Positions 1,226-60,471 of a stretch of DNA of 64,000 nt are shown here, piece by piece. The notes below the pieces were generated by a model. It saw nothing but the letters and a program-made list of their open reading frames with translations. It did not search any database and had not been told where the DNA came from. Each line of letters begins with the position of its first letter. Position 1 is the stretch's first letter. Source of the stretch: Candidatus Kaiserbacteria bacterium (GTDB lineage Bacteria > Patescibacteriota > Minisyncoccia > Phycocordibacterales > Phycocordibacteraceae); contig JAPLWH010000014.1 in assembly GCA_026396715.1 (NCBI GenBank), positions 8,063-72,062 on the forward strand, in the 5' to 3' direction. A program made the translations under genes and the position numbers.

Positions 1226-2179
1226 ATGAGTGATATGCATGACGCGTGGTTTTTCGTAGGTATCTTCGTCTTTATCTTTCTCCTATGGATCGCGACTGGC
1301 GGCCCCCTGCACCCCATCGCCTTTACCGGCCCAAAACTTGCCTCGCCGGGAGTACTTGGCGGCGGAACCTATCTCTCGCTTCCGCGGTCGCCTTATGGCG
1401 TCGGCGGCACGAATATCTCACTTCCCGGATCATCGAGCGGCGGCGGCGCTTTAGACACGGAAGCTTCCCTCCCCATCTTGAGCGGCGCGAGCTTCGGCGC
1501 ACCATCACTCTATCGTTCGATCATTAGAATGAATCACTCTATCTCTGGCGCAAGCTCCAATGATCCAGGGAACGAATACCTGGAAATCTCCGTATCCCAG
1601 AACGCCGGCATGCCCGTCAATCTTTCGGAGTGGTCGCTCAGAAGCGACGCAACCGGCAGCTCGGTGAATATCCCGAAAGGGACCGAAGTGCCGACCTCCG
1701 GCGTCGTAAATGCAAAAGAGAGCATTGTACTTGCACCGGGAGACCGAGCAATCATCATTTCCGGACAATCCCCTATCGGAGCCTCTTTCCGAGAAAATAA
1801 ATGCATCGGTTATTTCAGCACCTTCCAGAAATTCTATCCATCCCTGCCGCAGAACTGTCCACTGCCCACAAATGAACTTACTTCGTTCTATGGCGCCAGC
1901 TATATCCACGACACTGCCTGCATCGAAAGTGTTGATAAAATCTCGCGCTGCCAAGTCATGCTCTCACCGCCCGCCAACGTTTCAAATACCTGTCAAAACT
2001 TTATGGTGAAATATCTCAATTACAACGGATGCGTCGAAGCCCACCGCAAAGACGCCGATTTCCTCGGCAACACTTGGCGCATCTACCTCGGTCGCACGAA
2101 CTCGATGTGGCGCTCGAAATACGAAGTTGTGAAGCTACTCGACGTAAACGGAAAAACGGTCGACGCATTCAGCTACTAG
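1226..2179 (+). CDS. membrane-anchored/secreted hypothetical protein with lamin-tail-like (LTD) segment and Cys-rich C-terminus
   Basis: N-terminal TM helix (FFVGIFVFIFLLWIA). The segment NEYLEISVSQN...VNLSEWSLRS resembles LTD domains. The C-terminus is rich in cysteines. Confidence 0.45.
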   Translation: MSDMHDAWFFVGIFVFIFLLWIATGGPLHPIAFTGPKLASPGVLGGGTYLSLPRSPYGVGGTNISLPGSSSGGGALDTEASLPILSGASFGAPSLYRSIIRMNHSISGASSNDPGNEYLEISVSQNAGMPVNLSEWSLRSDATGSSVNIPKGTEVPTSGVVNAKESIVLAPGDRAIIISGQSPIGASFRENKCIGYFSTFQKFYPSLPQNCPLPTNELTSFYGASYIHDTACIESVDKISRCQVMLSPPANVSNTCQNFMVKYLNYNGCVEAHRKDADFLGNTWRIYLGRTNSMWRSKYEVVKLLDVNGKTVDAFSY

Positions 2180-3009
2180 CTTTTAAAAGATTTAATAGCT
2201 TGCTTGAGCAGTTCTCTTTTTTCTATATGTTTCTTCCATCGGCTGTTTGAGCGATTCCCGTTCATGTATACACCCGATGAAAAATTTATTTCCTGCTCAA
2301 ATCGCATCAGGTTTTCTTTTCCCACGATCACTACTTCATTTGGCTTTACCACGTGCGAATCGATACATACCTCGACGAGGATGGCTCGAATGAGTTTGAG
2401 AATACCGACATCTTTCTGGTAGCCGCGTATACTCCTTCTATTTTCCTCAGGTCGATAATCGATACAACCTTCATCATCGAAAAATGCCCGCAGGAACTCG
2501 CGCTTGCAGTCGAGCGACATACTCCTAACGAGTCGTAACAATTCTTTTGACTTCGTATGCAGGTAAGAGCTCAACGCTACATTGTTATAAGTGATACGTG
2601 ATACTCCGGTCATTTTATTGTAATATCGGCTCGGCTCGAAGTCATACCACTCATGCATGAGCTGTTCGACCCGCTCGATGAGTGCCGTACTTCGATTATT
2701 ATAGGCACATCTGGTGCGAGCAATCTCTCCATCGAAGAGCAGGTGTGCAATAAGAAGCACTGAATCGACGGACCATTCGTCGAAGGTCTTGAACGCACGC
2801 GCACTCTTCCCTTTCCGAGCAAGTGCGAATTTTCTTATTCGTTCTCCGGAAGCAGCTTTATATTGCCGCACACGTTCTTTGCTCAAAGGAATGTCTTTGA
2901 TGTGCGTGTGAATAGAACTTTTTGCTCTGCCGGTCGCCTTCATAATTTCAATAATGCTGTAACCCTCCTTTCGCAAGGCTATACATTGCTCTTTGAAAGA
3001 AGTTTTCAT
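2176..3009 (-). CDS. HTH + LAGLIDADG-type homing-endonuclease-like protein (paralog 1)
   Basis: N-terminal HTH (YSIIEIMKATGRAKSSIH). Two LAGLIDADG-like motifs (HLLFDGEI, FLRAFFDDEGCI). The start codon lies 2 nt after the tRNA-Lys 3' end on the same strand. Confidence 0.6.
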   Translation of the reverse strand: MKTSFKEQCIALRKEGYSIIEIMKATGRAKSSIHTHIKDIPLSKERVRQYKAASGERIRKFALARKGKSARAFKTFDEWSVDSVLLIAHLLFDGEIARTRCAYNNRSTALIERVEQLMHEWYDFEPSRYYNKMTGVSRITYNNVALSSYLHTKSKELLRLVRSMSLDCKREFLRAFFDDEGCIDYRPEENRRSIRGYQKDVGILKLIRAILVEVCIDSHVVKPNEVVIVGKENLMRFEQEINFSSGVYMNGNRSNSRWKKHIEKRELLKQAIKSFKS

Positions 3010-3010
3010 G

Positions 3011-3084
3011 TGCGCCCGGATGGATTTGAACCATCGACCAACGGATTAAAAGTCCGATGCTCTACCAGGCTGAGCTACGGGCGC
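3011..3084 (-). tRNA. tRNA-Lys (anticodon UUU)
   Basis: Cloverleaf GCGCCCG/CGGGCGC acceptor, anticodon loop CUUUUAA, T-loop TTCAAAT. No encoded CCA. Confidence 0.85.
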
Positions 3085-3257
3085 GTAGTGAGGTGGAACA
3101 AAACAAGTCTGCTTGATTTTGTTCCCGCCGAACGAGCGGCCGTATGGATTACCATACGGGCGCGTAGTGAAACCCTACCATCTCTCACTTATTCCGACGA
3201 CTCCCTTTAGATACTACCATACGCAGGTTCGTAAATCTGCCGGGCGCACTGATATAC

Positions 3258-3291
3258 AAAAAGGCCATGTCCTCGGACATGGCCTTTTTCT
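3258..3291. terminator. bidirectional Rho-independent terminator hairpin
   Basis: aaaaaggccatgtcc-tcg-gacatggccttttt: a perfect 15-bp stem flanked by an A-tract and a T-tract. Confidence 0.7.
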
Positions 3292-3300
3292 TTGCTGTTC

Positions 3301-3714
3301 TTACCTAGAAAGATTGGCGACAGTAGCCGTCTGTCTATAAACGAGATACTTGCGCGCGCGAGGATCGTCTACCACCTTCGCGATTTCTTCAGAAGAAAAA
3401 AGTTGCGGCGCTTGGACGCTGAGTCGCACGCTTTCTTCCACAAACTCCCGCCAGCCGGGCGAACCGGGCGCGAAGAGGTCTCTAATCGTGCGATACAGAG
3501 CATCGGCCCACTCTGGGCGAGATGCCGCGCAAACGAGAATTCTAGCCATCGATAAACGATGCGACTGGTGCCGGACGAACGCTCGCATGATTTGCCTCGC
3601 CTTCTTGAGCGTAGGGATGTTCTCGAGGCATTTTGCCGCACCTTCATTCGAGAGAGCTACGGAAAGGACAGCCTCCACATCTTTCCCCAAAGCTGCATGC
3701 CGCGCGTACCTCAT
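3301..3714 (-). CDS. hypothetical protein
   Basis: 137-aa ORF with GGAGG 6 nt upstream of the ATG. The terminator lies downstream. No recognisable domain. Confidence 0.45.
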   Translation of the reverse strand: MRYARHAALGKDVEAVLSVALSNEGAAKCLENIPTLKKARQIMRAFVRHQSHRLSMARILVCAASRPEWADALYRTIRDLFAPGSPGWREFVEESVRLSVQAPQLFSSEEIAKVVDDPRARKYLVYRQTATVANLSR

Positions 3715-41273: not shown

Positions 41274-42276
41274 GATTTTTCACGACAAAGAGATACTCCG
41301 TATTCCTATCCTTGTTCTCCTTGCCTGTTACCTTGTAGCGATGGGGTTTTTCAATAATCTCTATAGAACTCGCATATTTTGAAAGCAATGTATACAGCTC
41401 TTCTTTGCTTGGGAAGGAAGAGTTGTTATAGCTCATAACCCAATATTTGTATGAGGTAAGGTTCGCAAATAATCTGTCGAAGAGTTCTAGGGCAGACTTT
41501 CGATTTACGAAATTGTTTTTGAATGGCTTTAATTTCTTCGATTCTATGTATTCGTCTAACGCGCCATAAAATCCGAAATAATTATTCATCGTGCCTGAAT
41601 ACGGGGGGTCGAGATATATCACGTCTGCCTGTACCGTTCCGAGTAGATCAAAAATATCCCTGTTGTACACACGGTTATCCTTTCCGTTGTCAAAGACCGC
41701 TTGATTATATGCGGTTAGATTTGCGAGCACATGCTCTCGGAATGAAAGATTGTGATATGCGCGTTTTCTCCCATACGTTTTATAGCTGTGAACTTCATCG
41801 CGAAGCTTTTTTATCGTATTCCAATCAATAGTAAATCTGGAGTACGGCATTTTTCGTATCATGGCGCGCCGGAGTAAGCTCAGTGCCAATGCTTTTTTAT
41901 ACGTCGAGCCGAGTTTCTCCACATTTTTCCGGTATCGATCAAGCTCCATGCATTCATTGGGAAAAAAATAAACATTCGCGTAGTTTTTATACATAAAACC
42001 TTTTACTGGTTTCCCCGCGAAGAGGATAGTCAGGTCTGATTCTTCCAAGGTTTCCCGCTTATTTTCTATAAGCGCAGTAGCCAACTGAGCATTAATTTTC
42101 AGAATGTCGTTGCTGATGACGCGCATCCCTCTTTTTTTCGCTTCGTATCCGACGGAACTGCTTCCGGCGAAAGCGTCGAATACGGACTCTGCAGCTATCG
42201 GGAATAGATCGCAAATCCAAGAAGCAAGCTTTTCTTTATTCCCGATGAAGTTTATTTTTGGAGGTTTATTTTTCAT
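41197..42276 (-). CDS. N6-adenine DNA methyltransferase, D12/Dam class
   Basis: Motif I FAGSSSVG and motif IV DPPY (VIYLDPPYSG). Confidence 0.8.
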   Translation of the reverse strand: MKNKPPKINFIGNKEKLASWICDLFPIAAESVFDAFAGSSSVGYEAKKRGMRVISNDILKINAQLATALIENKRETLEESDLTILFAGKPVKGFMYKNYANVYFFPNECMELDRYRKNVEKLGSTYKKALALSLLRRAMIRKMPYSRFTIDWNTIKKLRDEVHSYKTYGRKRAYHNLSFREHVLANLTAYNQAVFDNGKDNRVYNRDIFDLLGTVQADVIYLDPPYSGTMNNYFGFYGALDEYIESKKLKPFKNNFVNRKSALELFDRLFANLTSYKYWVMSYNNSSFPSKEELYTLLSKYASSIEIIEKPHRYKVTGKENKDRNTEYLFVVKNLKKTHVLDDIRDMQVVPPQEMSYQE

Positions 42277-55498: not shown

Positions 55499-55546
55499 TA
55501 AACAAAAACAACGCGGCGCCTTTGGCGCCGCGTTGTTTTTGTTTCA
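55499..55546. terminator. bidirectional Rho-independent terminator
   Basis: aaacaaaaacaacgcggcgcc-tttg-gcgccgcgttgtttttgttt. Confidence 0.75.
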
Positions 55547-55561
55547 AAGCCCTGTCATTTG

Positions 55562-55633
55562 TGCGGGCGGCGGGAGTCGAACCCGCGCTGATTGCTTGGA
55601 AGGCAACCGTCATAGCCGTTAGACCACGCCCGC
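55562..55633 (-). tRNA. tRNA-Gly (anticodon UCC)
   Basis: GCGGGCG acceptor, anticodon loop CUUCCAA, T-loop TTCGACT. Confidence 0.85.
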
Positions 55634-56326
55634 TTTCTCAATTTCCGATAAAATCGCCTCATTCCAGAGCTGGATTTTCCGGAAAAAGACTACTCCATAT
55701 TCTTTTCTCCCTCCACTCTGAACAGTCATTTGTACGGTACCGTAAGGAAGTTTGCGTCGTTTCTTAGCTTTCTTATCAGTGCGACTGTCAATTTGGTGTT
55801 TCTGGAATTGGGATACTGGAATGCTAGTGGTACGGGACCAAAATTGCAAACTTTGCTTCACGTCGCTGTCTGGATAGAGATGTAGGCGAAGTCGTAACTG
55901 TCTCTTCTCCACACCAAGCATTCTAAACCATGCAATGGTGGCTTGGATGATGCGTGGATCTGAATTTATCATACGAACCTGACTATTCGTTTTGCTTCCC
56001 TCCCCAAGATAGAGGCCCAGACCAAACACAAAAAGGTCTCTCCGGCTCATTTTTCCAATGTCTTTGGCGGCTGTTTTTCTGATTTCCTGAATTGATTTTT
56101 GTCGCAGCTCAGCCCGGCGCGCACCGGCTGCGGCCCGTGCTTTCCCAAAGGAATCTATCGTTTCTTTGTTTGGAGCGTACGGTGTTTCCGTGAGCCATCC
56201 GCTCAATGTGCTTTTAGAAAGTCCGGTCTTAGCCGAAATGTACGTATAAGAAAAGCCACTTTTTCGTAATGCCAAAGCTTTTTCTCGAATAGACAGGTTG
56301 TGCATGTGTAGATTATATATCTGCAC
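55619..56326 (-). CDS. HTH + LAGLIDADG-like protein (paralog 2)
   Basis: HTH (YTYISAKTGLSKSTLSGW) and LGLYLGEGSK motif. The 3' end overlaps the tRNA-Gly(UCC) 5' end by about 15 nt. Confidence 0.55.
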   Translation of the reverse strand: MQIYNLHMHNLSIREKALALRKSGFSYTYISAKTGLSKSTLSGWLTETPYAPNKETIDSFGKARAAAGARRAELRQKSIQEIRKTAAKDIGKMSRRDLFVFGLGLYLGEGSKTNSQVRMINSDPRIIQATIAWFRMLGVEKRQLRLRLHLYPDSDVKQSLQFWSRTTSIPVSQFQKHQIDSRTDKKAKKRRKLPYGTVQMTVQSGGRKEYGVVFFRKIQLWNEAILSEIEKAGVV

Positions 56327-56412
56327 AGTATATACAAGCTAGTTCGATATCAACACCTATCGAAACTGACTACAGAGGTGTGCTGTCTTTCAAAACGAAA
56401 GTGCGTTAGCGT

Positions 56413-57546
56413 ATGCGTATGAACCGCTCGACGCCCTATCTCGGCATCATCGCTATGCTCGCGGCTGTCTTTTTTATTGCAATGCTTTCTGATGCGCCGC
56501 CAACCCCGCAGAAGTCGTCTGTCGGGACGACGACACCCATCGTCGTCGTGAGTGAACCAGAGGTCGTTTCTCCATCAAAACCTGAAGCAACAACAACCTC
56601 CCCCGTCGCGAAACCGCCTGCCGTTTCGCATATTGAGAAAACAGTCGCACCAAAGGTTCCCGAGGTAGTGCCAGCGCATCCCGTTACTGCGCCGGTAACG
56701 CCGCCTGCGCCGACCGAGGAGATGTTTGATGCATCCGCGCTCGCTTTGCGCGACGCGCTCGTAAATATCATCTGCTACGCCCCACAAGGCAGCGGCCTAC
56801 ACTCGATAAGTGGCAGCGGTGTCTTCATTGATTCGAAAGGCATCATTTTAACGAATGCGCACATCGCACAGTCTTTCCTTCTCTCTGATCACGGCGTTTT
56901 TTGCGTCGTTCGTTCCGGTAGTCCCGCGAGAGATAAGTACGAGGCGGCGCTTATCCATATCTCGTCGCCCTGGATCAGAGCAAATGCCGCGACACTCACA
57001 CAGGATGCACCGACGGGGAACGGAGAGTATGATTTTGCGCTTTTGGCCGTTACTAAGAGTGTAACGAGCGCACCGCTTCCTTCGCAATTTCCTTTCGTTC
57101 CGCTTGCGCAGACGCCTCCCCTTTCGGGTGCTCCGGTTACAATTGCCTCGTATGGTGCGCAATTCCTTGAGGCAAGCCAGGTTCGTTCGGCACTCTTCCC
57201 CACGATTGTCTTTGGTTCGATAAAGAAGGTGTTCACCTTTGCGACAAACACTGTGGATGTCTTCTCTCTTGGTGGGTCTGCTGCCGCGCAGGAAGGCTCT
57301 TCGGGTGGTGGTATTTCCGACACGACGGGCACACTCATCGGCACCATCACGACGAGCACGGTGACCGGTCCGACCGATACGCGCACGTTGTCCGCTATTA
57401 CCGCATCGTATATCCGCGCTGAGTATGCGAATGAAACTGGGAAAGCTCTCGACCTCCTCCTTGCTGCACCGACCGTTACCTCCATTTCCGGTTTTGTGCC
57501 TCAGATAGCCACGCTCGAAGCGCTTCTCGTGGCTCATCTTCCATAG
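56413..57546 (+). CDS. secreted trypsin-like (S1) serine protease
   Basis: Signal/TM segment, Pro-rich linker, motifs GSGVFIDSKGIILTNAHI and EGSSGGG (GDSGG-like). Confidence 0.65.
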   Translation: MRMNRSTPYLGIIAMLAAVFFIAMLSDAPPTPQKSSVGTTTPIVVVSEPEVVSPSKPEATTTSPVAKPPAVSHIEKTVAPKVPEVVPAHPVTAPVTPPAPTEEMFDASALALRDALVNIICYAPQGSGLHSISGSGVFIDSKGIILTNAHIAQSFLLSDHGVFCVVRSGSPARDKYEAALIHISSPWIRANAATLTQDAPTGNGEYDFALLAVTKSVTSAPLPSQFPFVPLAQTPPLSGAPVTIASYGAQFLEASQVRSALFPTIVFGSIKKVFTFATNTVDVFSLGGSAAAQEGSSGGGISDTTGTLIGTITTSTVTGPTDTRTLSAITASYIRAEYANETGKALDLLLAAPTVTSISGFVPQIATLEALLVAHLP

Positions 57547-57549
57547 TCA

Positions 57550-57620
57550 TCGGGCCGCCGAGAATTGAACTCGGTCTGTCTGCTCCCAAAGCAGATGTAC
57601 TACCGGCATACTCCGGCCCG
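57550..57620 (-). tRNA. tRNA-Pro (anticodon UGG)
   Basis: CGGGCCG/CGGCCCG acceptor, anticodon loop UUUGGGA, T-loop TTCAATT. Position 8 is G, which is atypical. Confidence 0.7.
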
Positions 57621-57640
57621 TTGTTTGCATCGTAACAGAT

Positions 57641-58036
57641 TCAGACGATTTGTGGCAGGTAGCGGACTAATGCCTGCCCGTCCCTGCGCCGTAGCCATAC
57701 GAGACAGCCGTCTACCTGCCAATCCCCCTCCCACTCTTTCTCAAGGACATACCACTCCCCCGTCCGCGCAACCTTCCGTATCTTTGCCTCATGGAGATTT
57801 AGCGATGGGTCATAGTCGTCCCCGGTGTCATCATCGCGCGGGAATTCATCTGCGAGAATCGTCTTCACTTCAATGAAATGCAGAGTGTCCTCTTTCTCCG
57901 CGATGAGGTCGAGCTCACCGGTTTTCCGCGTAATATTGCGGTCACGAATGGAAAATCCATGTCGCTTGAGATACTCGGCTGCAATACTTTCTCCGAGCAT
58001 ACCCACTTCTTTTCTAGTCTTAGAAGAAATGTCCAC
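57641..58036 (-). CDS. yraN: YraN/UPF0102 family endonuclease
   Basis: GESIAAEYLKRHGFSIRDRN...GELDLIAEKEDTLHFIEVKT. Confidence 0.8.
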   Translation of the reverse strand: MDISSKTRKEVGMLGESIAAEYLKRHGFSIRDRNITRKTGELDLIAEKEDTLHFIEVKTILADEFPRDDDTGDDYDPSLNLHEAKIRKVARTGEWYVLEKEWEGDWQVDGCLVWLRRRDGQALVRYLPQIV

Positions 58037-58231
58037 GGCTTTTTAAAATATGGCTTATTCTATCAGTATACTTTAGGACCAGATAAGAATTCACTTAATG
58101 AACAGGTGTCCTTTATCCCCAGTATGAACAGGTTTATCCCCTTATCATACAGAACGAAAAGACATGCAAAAACGGCTCAATCGAGCCGTTTTTGCATGTA
58201 GGAACCATCTTGAAGTCAAATACTGATTTTG

Positions 58232-58302
58232 TGCGGGCAGGGAGAATCGGACTCCCGTCTCGTCCTTGGCAAGGACGCGTTCTACCACTGAACCATGCCC
58301 GC
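58232..58302 (-). tRNA. tRNA-Gly (anticodon GCC)
   Basis: GCGGGCA acceptor, anticodon loop UUGCCAA, T-loop TCCGATT. Confidence 0.85.
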
Positions 58303-58308
58303 AGACCG

Positions 58309-58989
58309 CTACATCTTCGCATAATAAGCTTCATTCATCAATTCCTTGGGTAACAGTTTCAACCATTCGAGCATCTTTACTTTCAAATAAGTGCTTGAAA
58401 TACCAATCATGCACACCCCGTATTTAATTCGGCGTGTTTTATGGCGCCCCACTATGATAGTACTCTTGGTAAATTGCGACAGATTGACGCTTGATTCATG
58501 GGACCAGTATTTCCGGCAGTCTTCATCGCTAAGATCTGGATATATGAGCACGTGCGCCCGTATCTTTTCTTCAGGGATTCTGCAAGCGTTTTTGAGGAAA
58601 AACACGTATAAACGAATTAAGTCAGGGTCGGTATTGGTAATTGCGGTTGAATATTTAGTTAATTTGTCTCCCTCTCCCCAGTAAAGCATCAGGCCAGCGA
58701 TGAAAAGAGGATTGTATTTCATTTCATTAAATTCAACCCTTGCCTCTTCGCGTGCCTCCTCATACACTTTCTTCAAGTGCTGACCTCGTACTCTATTGAG
58801 ATCAATGAGTCTAGTTGTATGCTGGTCTTGAGCTTGAGATGCGAGTCTTTCCTTAATCTGTTTCGACCAATCAACTGTGCTGAACCATCCTGAAAGAGTT
58901 CCTTTGGGTATTTTAAGAGCTTTACGGATCTCCAGATAACTCTTTCCTCTTCGGCGAAGAACGAAAGCTTCTTGCTTATCTTTCCGCAT
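58309..58989 (-). CDS. HTH + LAGLIDADG-like protein (paralog 3)
   Basis: HTH (YLEIRKALKIPKGTLSGW) and AGLMLYWGEGDK motif. Its stop lies 6 nt before the tRNA-Gly(GCC) 5' end. Confidence 0.55.
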   Translation of the reverse strand: MRKDKQEAFVLRRRGKSYLEIRKALKIPKGTLSGWFSTVDWSKQIKERLASQAQDQHTTRLIDLNRVRGQHLKKVYEEAREEARVEFNEMKYNPLFIAGLMLYWGEGDKLTKYSTAITNTDPDLIRLYVFFLKNACRIPEEKIRAHVLIYPDLSDEDCRKYWSHESSVNLSQFTKSTIIVGRHKTRRIKYGVCMIGISSTYLKVKMLEWLKLLPKELMNEAYYAKM

Positions 58990-59050
58990 ACTGAAATTAT
59001 ATACGACGTGAGTTCACTTTTTGGCAGAAACATCTAAAATAGTGGATATC

Positions 59051-59851
59051 TTATTCCCGACGCTTGAAATAGAAGTTCCTTGCAAGCACTTTCTTCAACC
59101 TCTCCGCTTTTTTCGGATTGTTTTCGAGCATGAATCGAATCTTACCGGGCTTCTGACAGATACGTATGATCTCCGGGAGAATGCTCTCTAGACTCTCTTC
59201 TGAAGCGTAAAGCTTATCAATACGTTCAGATATCCCCTTGGCCAGCCGTACTGTGATAATCATGGGACCGAGTATCGTCACATGGTCGGTCCTTCGGAAA
59301 AGCGTTATATCTCTTAGGTCTATTTGCAAATACTCATTCTGGTACGCTTTCTTAAACTCAGTGTCCGCCCGGGAATCCCCTCCTATTGTAAAGAATCCGT
59401 ACCGTTTATCCGAAAAGTGCCGATAATACGCGTCCTCGCTCTGTTTACGAGCCGGTAAATAGGCCCAGAAATTGTGTGGATTGTAGAAAAAGATTTCGCG
59501 AGCTGAAATTGAGTTTTCTAAAGGAAGAGTGACAGTCTTCCAGAACGCGTCCAAGTGCTCTACTGACACAAATGTGTACACGGCCCGCTCATTACTTGAA
59601 AGAAGTGGCGCTGGCGTGGTGCTAAGTATCTCAGAAACACTTTTTGCCCATTCATGATCAATCATAATCTGCTTCCCTACTTTCAGAAGCACTCCTGCGT
59701 CGATGAGTTTATGAACTGTCTTATACACCGCCCTCAATGACAAATGCTCATCTTTGACGAGCTCCGTATGGAGAGACTTAATGGTCATCCGAGTGCCGGC
59801 GGCTAATTCGACAGTTCGATCCTCGACGCTCTTTAAGGCGCTGAATAGCAT
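59051..59851 (-). CDS. hypothetical HTH-containing protein
   Basis: N-terminal wHTH-like segment (MTIKSLHTELVKDEHLSLRAVYKTVHKLIDAG). AT-rich divergent promoter region upstream. Confidence 0.4.
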   Translation of the reverse strand: MLFSALKSVEDRTVELAAGTRMTIKSLHTELVKDEHLSLRAVYKTVHKLIDAGVLLKVGKQIMIDHEWAKSVSEILSTTPAPLLSSNERAVYTFVSVEHLDAFWKTVTLPLENSISAREIFFYNPHNFWAYLPARKQSEDAYYRHFSDKRYGFFTIGGDSRADTEFKKAYQNEYLQIDLRDITLFRRTDHVTILGPMIITVRLAKGISERIDKLYASEESLESILPEIIRICQKPGKIRFMLENNPKKAERLKKVLARNFYFKRRE

Positions 59852-60245: not shown

Positions 60246-60399
60246 TCCGCGATTACGCTTCTCGATCCTTACAGGATCAGTACACCTTGCGGATTTTCTG
60301 TTCGCATAAGAATGCTCCATAAAATGCTCGCAAGGTCTTCGAATCCCGTCCGCACGTCTCCCAGACGTGCTTCGGGACACGTCCTCGCTGACTCGATTG

Positions 60400-60471
60400 T
60401 GCCCCGACCAGGATTCGAACCTGGAACGACTGCTTCGAAGGCAGTAATGATATCCATTTCACCATCGGGGC
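60400..60471 (-). tRNA. tRNA-Arg (anticodon UCG)
   Basis: GCCCCGA/TCGGGGC acceptor, anticodon loop CUUCGAA, T-loop TTCGAAT. Confidence 0.8.

What the first reader, a model, noticed from the sequence alone, without database searches (positions are those of the whole stretch)
55562..58989. Two more HTH+LAGLIDADG-like paralogs, each fused head-to-tail onto a tRNA-Gly gene, inside a four-tRNA neighbourhood
ORF 55619-56326 overlaps the 5' end of tRNA-Gly(UCC) by about 15 nt. ORF 58309-58989 stops 6 nt before tRNA-Gly(GCC). Both are on the tRNA strand and upstream of it, so transcripts would carry ORF and tRNA together. With paralog 1 downstream of tRNA-Lys, all three family members are tRNA-linked. 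tRNA-Pro and tRNA-Arg lie within 2.5 kb. This may be a selfish homing-endonuclease-type element that targets tRNA loci without interrupting them. It may instead be a domesticated tRNA-processing or maturation factor.
Basis: partly seen in the sequence, partly recalled or inferred. Interest (0 to 1): 0.55.

Follow-up and report, generated by a model that had tools for sequence, protein, structure and literature searches.

The report
Endonuclease genes welded onto tRNA genes
Two genes in this ultra-small (Kaiserbacteria, CPR) bacterium belong to a very large, unnamed family of probable selfish DNA-cutting enzymes, each joined directly to the front of one particular tRNA gene, and about a fifth of this genome's tRNA genes carry such a passenger.

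Summary
ORF A (55619-56305, minus) runs 15 nt into tRNA-Gly(UCC). ORF B (58309-58989, minus) stops 6 nt before tRNA-Gly(GCC).

Both proteins have an N-terminal HTH and a single, divergent LAGLIDADG domain that Pfam misses. The domain is related to I-DmoI domain 2, keeps the E-G-x-K catalytic motif, and is predicted to form a homodimer.

The family holds about 7,200 clusters at 50% identity. In 65 of 67 copies from about 60 Patescibacteria genomes, the stop codon lies between -38 and +93 nt of the 5' end of a same-strand tRNA. In 19 copies the stop codon is tRNA nucleotides 8-10.

Protein clades follow tRNA identity. Copy number is patchy (0-9 per genome). Inside one genus both ORFs are cleanly present or absent at the same syntenic sites. 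ORF A is under strong purifying selection (dN/dS about 0.07).

Four further HE-like genes (classical LAGLIDADG and HNH) sit in the same position elsewhere in this genome.

Best reading: free-standing homing-endonuclease cassettes (own promoter, ORF, often the tRNA) that target tRNA genes. A tRNA-maturation role is not supported. No cleavage has been shown.

I found no published description. This scan has met the same family before on other DNA.

The parts
55619..56305 (-). ORF A, 228 aa: N-terminal HTH (about residues 6-38), long helix, single LAGLIDADG-like domain (about residues 88-224; motif GLGLYLGEGSK at 95-105). The last 5 codons, including the TAA, are tRNA-Gly(UCC) nt 1-15. An alternative GTG start lies at 56326.
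55561..55633 (-). tRNA-Gly(UCC), the only copy in the genome. Its sequence type differs from the tRNA at ORF-free sites: 51/75 identical to that of the closest relative, whose tRNA-Pro is 71/71 identical.
56306..56350 (-). 5' block of cassette A, conserved among A cassettes (ATATCGAAC ... TATAAT at 56317-56312, then 6 nt, then ATG). Probable own promoter giving a leaderless mRNA. Homology to ORF-free relatives resumes about 30 nt further upstream.
55500..55544 (.). Perfect 21-bp inverted repeat (bidirectional terminator) shared with the convergent HU gene. It is host flank, conserved in the ORF-free relative.
58309..58989 (-). ORF B, 226 aa, same architecture (motif GLMLYWGEGDK), 27% identical to A. 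It has its own TAG stop 6 nt before the tRNA.
58231..58302 (-). tRNA-Gly(GCC), the only copy in the genome. 59/73 identical to that of the closest relative, while the flanks are about 88-98% identical.
58990..59003 (-). TATAAT (59001-58996) 6 nt upstream of the ORF B ATG: probable own promoter, leaderless mRNA.
58162..58199 (-). Terminator hairpin after tRNA-Gly(GCC). It is host flank, near-identical in the closest relative.
57550..57620 (-). tRNA-Pro(UGG), part of the syntenic tRNA neighbourhood. It carries no HE-like ORF; the conserved YraN gene 57641-58036 lies upstream.
60399..60471 (-). tRNA-Arg(UCG). In ORF-free relatives it lies 27-76 nt upstream of tRNA-Gly(GCC). In other relatives a member of the family sits in front of this tRNA instead.
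2176..3009 (-). 'Paralog 1' (F): HTH plus a two-motif LAGLIDADG_3 protein that starts at the base after tRNA-Lys(UUU) (3010-3084). It is a separate family that docks at the tRNA 3' end.

Best explanation
ORF A and ORF B are free-standing homing-endonuclease genes of an unnamed HTH + single-LAGLIDADG family. Each belongs to a compact cassette: its own promoter 6-7 nt before the ATG (leaderless mRNA), the ORF, and the tRNA gene it abuts.

Inferred mechanism. The protein dimerises through its LAGLIDADG helix. The HTH adds DNA contacts. The dimer cuts the ORF-free allele of one particular tRNA locus, in the tRNA gene or at its promoter/5' junction. Recombinational repair then copies the ORF, often together with the donor's tRNA allele, into the cut chromosome. 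The single-copy essential tRNA is never interrupted.

In cassette A the tRNA's own promoter has been replaced. The tRNA is therefore probably made from the cassette transcript and released by RNase P. Because the ORF's stop codon lies inside the tRNA, RNase P cleavage would remove that stop codon.

Shown: the geometry, the family, the fold-level kinship, the conserved catalytic motif, purifying selection, presence/absence polymorphism, swapping of the tRNA allele together with the ORF, and clade-to-tRNA specificity.

Inferred: cleavage, the target site, co-transcription and the RNase P coupling.
For: (1) Geometry. 65 of 67 distinct family ORFs from G000 and about 60 other genomes end -38..+93 nt from a same-strand tRNA 5' end; of the other two, one locus is cut at a contig end and one scored as linked at -10. 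29 overlap the tRNA, and 19 end exactly at tRNA nt 8-10 (18 TAG, 1 TAA).

(2) Nuclease kinship. The family profile hits I-DmoI domain 2 at E=1.9e-5 (GLYlGEGsKT against GLYVAEGDKT, i.e. E117/K120). In the AF2 model (pLDDT 86.5), the nine best VIA-align hits (Z 5.4-6.9) are all LAGLIDADG domains. E102 is kept in 93%, G103 in 98% and K105 in 91% of 113 diverse representatives. The homodimer model scores 0.72 against a best control of 0.13, with the interface on helix 89-102, at least 83% contact agreement between runs and partner pLDDT at least 85. That mark was reached by 20 of 30 proteins solved as pairs and by 1 of 23 solved as single chains; the score may reflect likeness to solved LAGLIDADG dimers.

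(3) Selfish behaviour. Copy number is 0-6 within one taxonomic family (27/41 genomes positive), and 64/301 genomes across the phylum are positive with 1-9 copies, several with internal stops. In 23 syntenic loci of the genus, A is present in 4 and absent in about 19, and B is present in 6 and absent in at least 7. The closest relative (peptidase 75%, YraN 89%, tRNA-Pro 71/71) lacks A, and its B is only 53% identical, while a more distant relative has A at 80%. A 3' remnant of ORF B persists in an ORF-free spacer.

(4) Cassette. Against the closest relative, the block 'promoter + ORF A + tRNA' replaces 'promoter + tRNA' between sharply defined, near-identical flanks. The tRNA-Gly(UCC) is only 51/75 identical and the tRNA-Gly(GCC) 59/73. 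A TATAAT-like box lies 6-8 nt before the ATG in most cassettes.

(5) Protein clades follow tRNA identity: 12 labels need 12 changes (minimum 11), the shuffled mean is 25.1, and 0 of 200 shuffles score as low.

(6) dN/dS of A is about 0.065.

(7) Convergence. Two classical LAGLIDADG and two HNH ORFs sit in the same welded position on tRNA-Asp, Leu(GAG), His and Leu(UAA) in this genome.

(8) No terminal inverted repeats, target-site duplications or integrase are present.
Against: No cleavage, target site or homing event has been observed.

Pfam and NCBIfam see no nuclease domain in A or B. Foldseek against the PDB was inconclusive, and the VIA-align Z scores are only middling.

The tRNA allele is not strictly tied to the ORF. 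An 84%-identical A orthologue is welded to the 'ORF-free type' tRNA-Gly(UCC), and some B-linked tRNA-Gly(GCC) genes are identical to ORF-free ones. So immunity of occupied alleles cannot rest on the tRNA sequence alone.

Strong purifying selection and old, tRNA-specific clades would also fit a domesticated function.

In four metagenomes that hold this population, only the occupied form was seen.
Confidence: 0.65

Rival explanations
1. Domesticated, non-cutting DNA-binding proteins (WhiA-like): the HTH-LAGLIDADG protein binds near its own tRNA gene and regulates the cassette or tRNA promoter. The linkage would then be regulatory, not selfish.
For: WhiA is among the best structural matches (Z 6.3 and 5.7). 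An HTH is present. Purifying selection is strong. Stable clade-to-tRNA pairing holds. In cassette A the tRNA seems to depend on the cassette promoter.
Against: The acidic residue and the lysine that WhiA has lost are kept in more than 90% of 113 representatives. The protein has a single domain and a predicted homodimer, not WhiA's double domain. Most close relatives express the same tRNA without it. Copy number is 0-9 and pseudogenes occur. HNH and classical LAGLIDADG genes occupy the same position.
Confidence: 0.12
2. The cassettes spread and persist without their own nuclease activity. They move by ordinary homologous recombination or transformation between relatives, using the conserved tRNA and flanks as homology. 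They are retained because they have captured the promoter of an essential single-copy tRNA, so only a precise deletion is tolerated.
For: Cassette A replaces the tRNA's native promoter. The flanks are syntenic across the genus, which gives homology for exchange. The tRNA alleles recombine independently of the ORF.
Against: This does not explain why the passenger is always a nuclease-type protein, from three unrelated families. It also does not explain why the catalytic motif and the whole ORF are under strong constraint.
Confidence: 0.1
3. A tRNA-processing or maturation factor dedicated to the adjacent tRNA.
For: Tight physical coupling, probable co-transcription and one-clade-one-tRNA specificity.
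Against: The same tRNA species, often with the identical sequence, occurs without the ORF in most genomes of the same genus. The fold and motifs are those of DNA endonucleases. Only 21% of sampled genomes in the phylum have any copy.
Confidence: 0.04
4. Remnants of integrase-type islands or transposons that use tRNA genes as attachment sites.
For: tRNA genes are classic integration sites (established knowledge).
Against: The insertion is at the 5' end, is only about 0.75 kb and holds one gene. There is no integrase or transposase, no att-type direct repeat, and no TIR or TSD bracketing either cassette.
Confidence: 0.03

Closest known systems
I-DmoI and other LAGLIDADG homing endonucleases (I-Vdi141I, I-Tsp061I, I-CreI/I-CeuI/I-MsoI homodimers)
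   Same: The LAGLIDADG-type alpha/beta core is shared. The motif ...GLY-x-(G/A)-E-G-x-K matches I-DmoI domain 2, including its E117/K120 positions. These proteins are the best structural neighbours. The predicted homodimer forms through the LAGLIDADG helix, as in I-CreI-type enzymes.
   Different: Pfam's LAGLIDADG models do not recognise the domain. The protein carries an N-terminal resolvase/Tc3-type HTH and a long linker helix. The gene is not in an intron or intein but free-standing, welded to the 5' end of a tRNA gene. Activity is untested.
Free-standing homing endonucleases of T-even phages, especially SegB (GIY-YIG) in the T4 tRNA gene cluster (own knowledge; reviewed in PMC2988022, found but not read here)
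   Same: The endonuclease gene lies between genes rather than inside an intron. It is associated with tRNA genes. It shows presence/absence polymorphism between relatives, with neighbouring sequence carried along.
   Different: This is a different nuclease family in a bacterial chromosome, not a phage. The geometry is fixed and welded (the stop codon often lies inside the tRNA). Dozens of tRNA-specific subfamilies exist, and each cassette has its own leaderless promoter.
Fungal mitochondrial mobile endonuclease ORFs that carry a replacement terminus of the gene they invade
   Same: The invading nuclease ORF arrives together with a replacement copy of host-gene sequence, so that the essential gene stays functional.
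   Different: Here the host gene is a tRNA lying downstream of the ORF. The whole tRNA and its promoter can be replaced. No leftover host fragment is seen in this window.
WhiA (LAGLIDADG-derived transcription factor)
   Same: It combines LAGLIDADG-fold domains with an HTH, and it is a structural neighbour (Z 6.3).
   Different: WhiA has two degenerate domains without catalytic acids, a C-terminal HTH and near-universal vertical distribution in Gram-positive bacteria. This family has one domain, a conserved E/K motif, an N-terminal HTH and patchy distribution.

Membership tests
LAGLIDADG homing endonuclease superfamily | Alpha-beta-beta-alpha-beta-beta-alpha core fold | tested here: met
   In the AF2 model (pLDDT 86.5), residues about 85-225 match best to LAGLIDADG domains: TliVMA intein HE Z 6.9, I-DmoI Z 6.4 (rmsd 3.7, 88 aligned, 22% id), WhiA, I-Vdi141I, E-DreI, I-Tsp061I. 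The Z values are middling, and Foldseek alone was inconclusive.
LAGLIDADG homing endonuclease superfamily | LAGLIDADG helix ending in a conserved acidic residue | tested here: met
   The profile aligns GLYlGEGsKT to I-DmoI GLYVAEGDKT, E=1.9e-5. E102 is E in 105 and D in 2 of 113 representatives; G103 is kept in 98% and K105 in 91%.
LAGLIDADG homing endonuclease superfamily | Match to a curated family model (Pfam LAGLIDADG_1/2/3, NCBIfam) | tested here: not met
   No LAGLIDADG model is hit at E<=1 by ORF A or B. The neighbouring 'paralog 1' and the tRNA-Asp-linked ORF do hit PF14528.
LAGLIDADG homing endonuclease superfamily | Two domains forming one active site (homodimer for single-motif enzymes) | tested here: inconclusive
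   The homodimer model scores 0.72 against a best control of 0.13, with a symmetric interface on helix 89-102. The pass may come from likeness to solved dimers. Tandem-fused double-length members also exist.
LAGLIDADG homing endonuclease superfamily | Site-specific double-strand DNA cleavage | not testable with these tools
   This needs an in vitro or in vivo cleavage assay.
Free-standing homing endonuclease genes (Seg/Mob-like behaviour) | Not embedded in an intron or intein | tested here: met
   The ORFs lie in intergenic positions with their own promoter-like box. No intron was called in the window's tRNAs, and the only tRNA intron found in the genome scan lies on another contig.
Free-standing homing endonuclease genes (Seg/Mob-like behaviour) | Presence/absence polymorphism at the same site in close relatives, with a history discordant from the flanks | tested here: met
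   23 syntenic genus loci were compared. A is present in 4 and B in 6. The closest relative lacks A and its B is 53% identical; the tRNA next to the ORF is swapped while the flanks and tRNA-Pro are conserved.
Free-standing homing endonuclease genes (Seg/Mob-like behaviour) | Enzyme cuts the ORF-free allele and is copied in by repair | not testable with these tools
   Inferred only.
WhiA-type domesticated LAGLIDADG regulators | Two LAGLIDADG domains lacking catalytic acids, a C-terminal HTH, and conserved vertical inheritance | tested here: not met
   The protein has a single domain, a conserved E/K motif, an N-terminal HTH and 0-9 copies per genome.
Integrase-borne tRNA-targeting islands | Integrase gene and a duplicated tRNA 3' segment (att) bracketing the insert | tested here: not met
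   The insert is a single gene of about 0.75 kb at the tRNA 5' end, with no bracketing repeats.

The most novel reading that the evidence does not exclude
These cassettes are a natural 'cut-and-replace' drive on essential tRNA genes. The endonuclease destroys the resident single-copy tRNA locus. The cassette supplies the replacement tRNA and its only promoter, so the element cannot be lost without a precise excision. Placing the ORF's stop codon inside the tRNA (nt 8-10 in 19 of 65 linked copies) couples enzyme output to RNase P processing: a processed transcript becomes a non-stop mRNA. Several nuclease families (HTH-LAGLIDADG, classical LAGLIDADG, HNH) would have converged on this niche, occupying about a fifth of the tRNA genes of a 0.7-Mb genome, possibly in an arms race with group I introns that split the target.
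Probability: 0.3. Interest if true: 0.82.

Novelty: new variant of a known kind. Interest (0 to 1): 0.68.

Why it matters
If these are active enzymes, tRNA genes of CPR/Patescibacteria are a major, unrecognised niche for homing endonucleases. The family has thousands of subfamilies, and each is presumably specific for a roughly 20-bp site in or at one tRNA gene.

That would be a large natural library of LAGLIDADG specificities. It would also explain unusual tRNA alleles and tRNA-gene turnover in these reduced genomes.

It would provide a natural example of a selfish element that rides on, rather than interrupts, an essential RNA gene. It also affects annotation: these ORFs are 'hypothetical protein' or 'XRE-family regulator' everywhere.

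Tried and rejected
- Pfam and NCBIfam on A and B gave only weak HTH hits below cut-off and no nuclease model.
- Foldseek against the PDB gave no hit at E<=0.001: mixed alpha/beta folds on top, with I-DmoI at E about 0.16.
- The search for related loci with the five-paralogue alignment failed because no stretch was conserved enough.
- The sigma-70/terminator consensus scan gave no more promoter hits than shuffles. It did not list the TATAAT boxes next to the ATGs, which I read by eye.
- The look-up of sequencing runs listed no RNA holder, so nothing can be said on expression.
- Laying contigs of four freshwater metagenomes showed only the occupied form and no joint that skips an ORF.
- A search for a tRNA remnant downstream of paralogue E found nothing above chance.
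- Repeat search found no direct or inverted repeats bracketing either cassette, which rejects a transposon/att model.
- I tested the idea that the ORF-linked tRNA is always a distinct 'resistant' allele and rejected it as a strict rule. L100 carries an A orthologue on the ORF-free-type tRNA, and several B-linked tRNAs equal ORF-free ones.
- I could not define the exact insertion point of B from occupied/empty spacer comparison.
- Four full-text literature searches found no description of this family, and the 2024 CPR rRNA-intron LAGLIDADG paper does not mention tRNA. The library lacks most subscription journals.


Full report
**1. Observation**

ARAGORN finds five tRNA genes in the window, all on the minus strand:
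- Lys(UUU) 3010-3084
- Gly(UCC) 55561-55633
- Pro(UGG) 57550-57620
- Gly(GCC) 58231-58302
- Arg(UCG) 60399-60471

ORF A (55619-56326 from a GTG) runs 15 nt into tRNA-Gly(UCC). Its last codons GCG GGC GTG GTC TAA are tRNA nt 1-15. The ATG at 56305 gives the 228 aa seen in all orthologues, so it is the likely start.

ORF B (58309-58989) ends with its own TAG 6 nt before tRNA-Gly(GCC).

Contigs from other public metagenome runs bridge both ORF/tRNA junctions. The window is G000:C8:8063-72062 of a 705-kb, 32-contig genome (97.9% complete). Hit names place it in Candidatus Kaiserbacteria / Paceibacterota.

**2. What the proteins are**

A and B are 27% identical and share one architecture. Pfam sees only sub-threshold HTH matches at the N-terminus, and NCBIfam sees nothing.

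A profile of 44 family members hits the second LAGLIDADG domain of I-DmoI at E=1.9e-5. It aligns the family motif GLYlGEGsKT to I-DmoI GLYVAEGDKT, which holds E117 and K120.

An AlphaFold2 model has pLDDT 86.5 and pTM 0.74. It shows an N-terminal three-helix HTH, a long helix, and an alpha/beta domain.
- Foldseek was inconclusive.
- The Foldseek-independent VIA-align search placed only LAGLIDADG domains in the top nine (Z 5.4-6.9): TliVMA intein HE, I-DmoI at 22% identity, WhiA, I-Vdi141I, E-DreI, I-Tsp061I. Residues 1-42 matched resolvase/Tc3-type HTHs.

Among 113 representatives of 50%-identity clusters, E102 is E or D in 95%, G103 is kept in 98%, K105 in 91%, N114 in 95% and W156 in 99%.

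A two-copy model of residues 84-228 scored 0.72 against a best control of 0.13. The runs agreed in at least 83% of contacts and the partner pLDDT was at least 85. The interface is symmetric on the LAGLIDADG helix (97:97, 98:98), as in I-CreI-type homodimers. The mark was reached by 20 of 30 proteins solved as pairs and 1 of 23 solved as single chains. The pass may reflect likeness to solved dimers.

The family is very large. It has 7,184 clusters at E<=1e-3 and 4,153 at E<=1e-10 in the 1.84-billion-protein library, including tandem-fused double-length forms. Source names are 'hypothetical protein' or 'XRE-family regulator'.

**3. The tRNA linkage is general and precise**

G000 has five family members.
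- A overlaps tRNA-Gly(UCC).
- B precedes tRNA-Gly(GCC).
- C overlaps tRNA-Phe(GAA) by 10 nt.
- D lies 93 nt upstream of tRNA-Ile(UAU).
- E is divergent from, and about 97 nt away from, a tRNA-fMet(CAU) split by a 244-nt group I intron. This is the only tRNA intron found in the genome.

In other genomes the ORF is followed directly by a same-strand tRNA in 28/28 loci of the same taxonomic family and 28/29 loci drawn across the phylum. The 29th is a pseudogene with an internal stop that also sits before tRNA-Gly(GCC).

Pooled, 65 of 67 distinct ORFs have the tRNA 5' end -38..+93 nt from the stop. Of the other two, one locus is cut at a contig end, and the second was scored as linked at -10. Twenty-nine overlap the tRNA. 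In 19 the stop codon is exactly tRNA nt 8-10, the conserved U8-R9-G10 read as TAG in 18 and TAA in 1.

By comparison, only 24 of 1721 six-frame ORFs of at least 100 aa in G000 (1.4%) end that close to a same-strand tRNA.

In a maximum-likelihood tree of 34 members, clades follow tRNA identity almost perfectly. Twelve labels need 12 changes (minimum 11), the shuffled mean is 25.1, and 0 of 200 shuffles score as low.

**4. Mobile, not housekeeping**

The family is patchy. 27 of 41 genomes of the taxonomic family have it (0-6 copies). 64 of 301 across the phylum have it (1-9 copies), with several copies broken by stops or reduced to fragments.

Using the neighbouring peptidase as anchor, I recovered 23 syntenic loci of the genus. 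The order is HU, tRNA-Gly(UCC), peptidase, tRNA-Pro, YraN, tRNA-Gly(GCC), tRNA-Arg(UCG), CCA-adding enzyme.
- ORF A is present in 4 and absent in about 19. In the absent cases the peptidase start lies 32-100 nt from the tRNA.
- ORF B is present in 6 and absent in at least 7. In those, tRNA-Arg lies 27-76 nt upstream of tRNA-Gly.
- In other relatives a family member sits before tRNA-Arg(UCG) instead.

Histories are discordant. The closest relative, G052, has HU 100%, YraN 89%, peptidase 75% and tRNA-Pro 71/71 identical. Yet it lacks A and its B is only 53% identical. G061, with peptidase at 59%, has A at 80%.

One ORF-free spacer still holds the last roughly 20 nt of an ORF B.

ORF A is nevertheless under strong purifying selection. 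dN/dS is about 0.065 with dS 1.3-1.9, so the value is approximate.

**5. Cassette anatomy**

I aligned G000 with ORF-free G052. Near-identical flanks end sharply on both sides of a block in which 'about 75 nt + ORF A + tRNA' replaces 'about 52 nt with the native -10 box + tRNA'.

The tRNA-Gly(UCC) next to ORF A is a different sequence type from the one at ORF-free sites. It is 51/75 identical to G052's but 65/73 identical to that of occupied G061.

The same holds less cleanly for B. tRNA-Gly(GCC) is 59/73 identical and ORF B about 60-70% identical at the DNA level, against about 88-98% for the flanks.

ORF-linked tRNA-Phe genes likewise differ from ORF-free ones.

The tie is not absolute. An 84%-identical A orthologue (L100) is welded, in the same frame, to the ORF-free-type tRNA, and several B-linked tRNAs equal ORF-free ones. 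So ORF and tRNA usually travel together but can recombine apart.

Most cassettes have a TATAAT-like box 6-8 nt before the ATG. For A it is 56317-56312 and for B 59001-58996, which implies an own promoter and a leaderless mRNA.

No terminal repeats, target duplications or integrase are present.

**6. Convergence in the same genome**

I scanned all 40 ARAGORN tRNAs of G000 for ORFs in the same position. This turned up four more nuclease-type genes:
- A classical two-motif LAGLIDADG_3 protein (Pfam E=3e-13) that overlaps tRNA-Asp by 15 nt.
- A LAGLIDADG-like ORF that ends 1 nt before tRNA-Leu(GAG).
- An HNH ORF that overlaps tRNA-His by 15 nt.
- An HNH ORF (Pfam above cut-off) that overlaps tRNA-Leu(UAA) by 47 nt.

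Counted with A-D, eight of 40 tRNA genes carry an endonuclease-type ORF on their 5' end. In addition, 'paralog 1' sits at the 3' end of tRNA-Lys(UUU), a position reproduced in 3/3 genomes that have it.

Unrelated nuclease families in one position argue strongly for selfish targeting of tRNA genes rather than a tRNA-specific cellular function.

**7. Mechanism**

Best reading (confidence 0.65): these are free-standing homing-endonuclease cassettes. The homodimeric enzyme, helped by its HTH, cuts the ORF-free allele of its tRNA locus. Repair copies in the ORF and usually the adjoining tRNA allele. The essential tRNA stays intact.

In cassette A the tRNA has lost its own promoter. It is therefore probably made from the ORF transcript and released by RNase P, which would also remove the in-tRNA stop codon.

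Cleavage, target, co-transcription and this coupling are inferences.

The rivals score much lower for the reasons given in their sections. They are a WhiA-like regulator, passive recombination with promoter capture, a tRNA-maturation factor and an integrase island.

**8. Comparison and novelty**

The proteins work like, and are distant members of, the LAGLIDADG superfamily, with I-DmoI domain 2 the closest. The genetic behaviour resembles free-standing phage HEGs such as T4 SegB in the tRNA cluster. It also resembles fungal mitochondrial endonuclease ORFs that bring a replacement gene terminus.

The new elements are the fixed weld to the 5' end of a tRNA gene, the HTH + single-domain architecture, the scale of the family and the bacterial chromosomal setting.

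I found no description in four full-text searches, nor in the 2024 paper on CPR rRNA-intron LAGLIDADG enzymes. Relatives also occur inside tRNA arrays of 147-497-kb phage contigs.

**9. Earlier notes of this scan**

This scan has already reported the same family on other genomes. Those notes gave me four leads:
- The gene-plus-tRNA cassette idea.
- The association with tRNA introns.
- The phage copies.
- The 3'-docking family.

I tested each here on this genome's own relatives.

Noticed in passing
G000:C7:11645-12331(-) = L106:145-831; G000:C1:11812-12318(+) = L107:112-618; G000:C1:14359-14853(+) = L108:59-553; G000:C3:13810-14328(+) = L109:60-578: Four further endonuclease-type ORFs sit welded to the 5' end of same-strand tRNAs elsewhere in this genome. 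A classical LAGLIDADG_3 ORF sits on tRNA-Asp (overlap 15). A LAGLIDADG-like ORF ends 1 nt before tRNA-Leu(GAG). An HNH ORF sits on tRNA-His (overlap 15) and another on tRNA-Leu(UAA) (overlap 47).
   Followed up: partly
L003:1083-1405 (G000:C7 about 41791-42106, minus): An initiator-like tRNA(CAU) is split by a 244-nt group I intron (Rfam 51-53 bits). It is the only tRNA intron found in the genome and lies head-to-head, about 97 nt away, with family member E (G000:C7:42203-42970). E has no tRNA after its stop and carries a roughly 25-aa C-terminal extension. Six of the 29 family loci sampled across the phylum also hold a group I intron-bearing tRNA (Rfam; ARAGORN assigned Phe, Thr or Leu(CAA)).
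   Followed up: partly
window 2176-3009(-), with tRNA-Lys(UUU) 3010-3084(-); L104, L105: 'Paralog 1' is a separate HTH + two-motif LAGLIDADG_3 family. Its ATG follows the 3' end of tRNA-Lys(UUU) directly. The same arrangement holds in the two other genomes (of 81 in the order) that have it.
   Followed up: partly
L005 (tRNA-Phe, G000:C5:10286-10361), L015, L016, L025-L027: Several ORF-linked tRNAs have non-canonical T-loops (TGCAAAT, GCGCACT, CGCGACT instead of TTCGAxT). ORF-free tRNA-Phe genes of relatives have the canonical loop. In G000 this odd tRNA-Phe is the only one.
   Followed up: no
window 59051-59851(-): A 266-aa ORF of unknown family (only a weak winged-helix-like hit) is inserted between tRNA-Arg(UCG) and ORF B. 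In relative L055 its homologue (41% identity) sits directly upstream of tRNA-Gly(GCC) without ORF B. The Arg-Gly spacer therefore accepts other inserts too.
   Followed up: no
L044:about 3130-3350 (G052): About 200 nt are inserted between the terminator and the 3' end of tRNA-Gly(GCC). The insert holds partial copies, direct and inverted, of the tRNA's T-arm and acceptor 3' end. It may be a remnant of a replaced tRNA or a separate tRNA-tail repeat. It is absent from the window.
   Followed up: no
L065:1037-1084 (G016): The ORF-free spacer before tRNA-Gly(GCC) still reads ...GTGCGAATATGTGCAGCAA. This resembles the conserved 3' end of ORF B genes (TATTATGCGAATATGTAG) and looks like the footprint of a lost ORF.
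   Followed up: no
L096, L097 (372-497 kb viral contigs), L098 (147 kb): Relatives of the family (28% identity) lie inside tRNA gene arrays of very large phage contigs. In two of the three loci they are on the opposite strand to the flanking tRNAs.
   Followed up: partly
P0137, P0139, P0142, P0144, P0145: Family members of 500-576 aa hold two or three full-length matches in tandem. These are fused or read-through double copies and could be single-chain pseudo-dimers.
   Followed up: no
L049:1407-1477, L051:1398-1468, L053:1263-1333: In three genus relatives ARAGORN calls tRNA-Pro(UGG) on the opposite strand relative to the same YraN and peptidase neighbours. That would mean the tRNA gene alone is inverted.
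   Followed up: no
G000:C31:11282-11355 and many loci (L020-L022, L041, L042, L067-L084): tRNA-Ile with anticodon UAU is the commonest partner of this family in the samples (about 16 loci).
   Followed up: no
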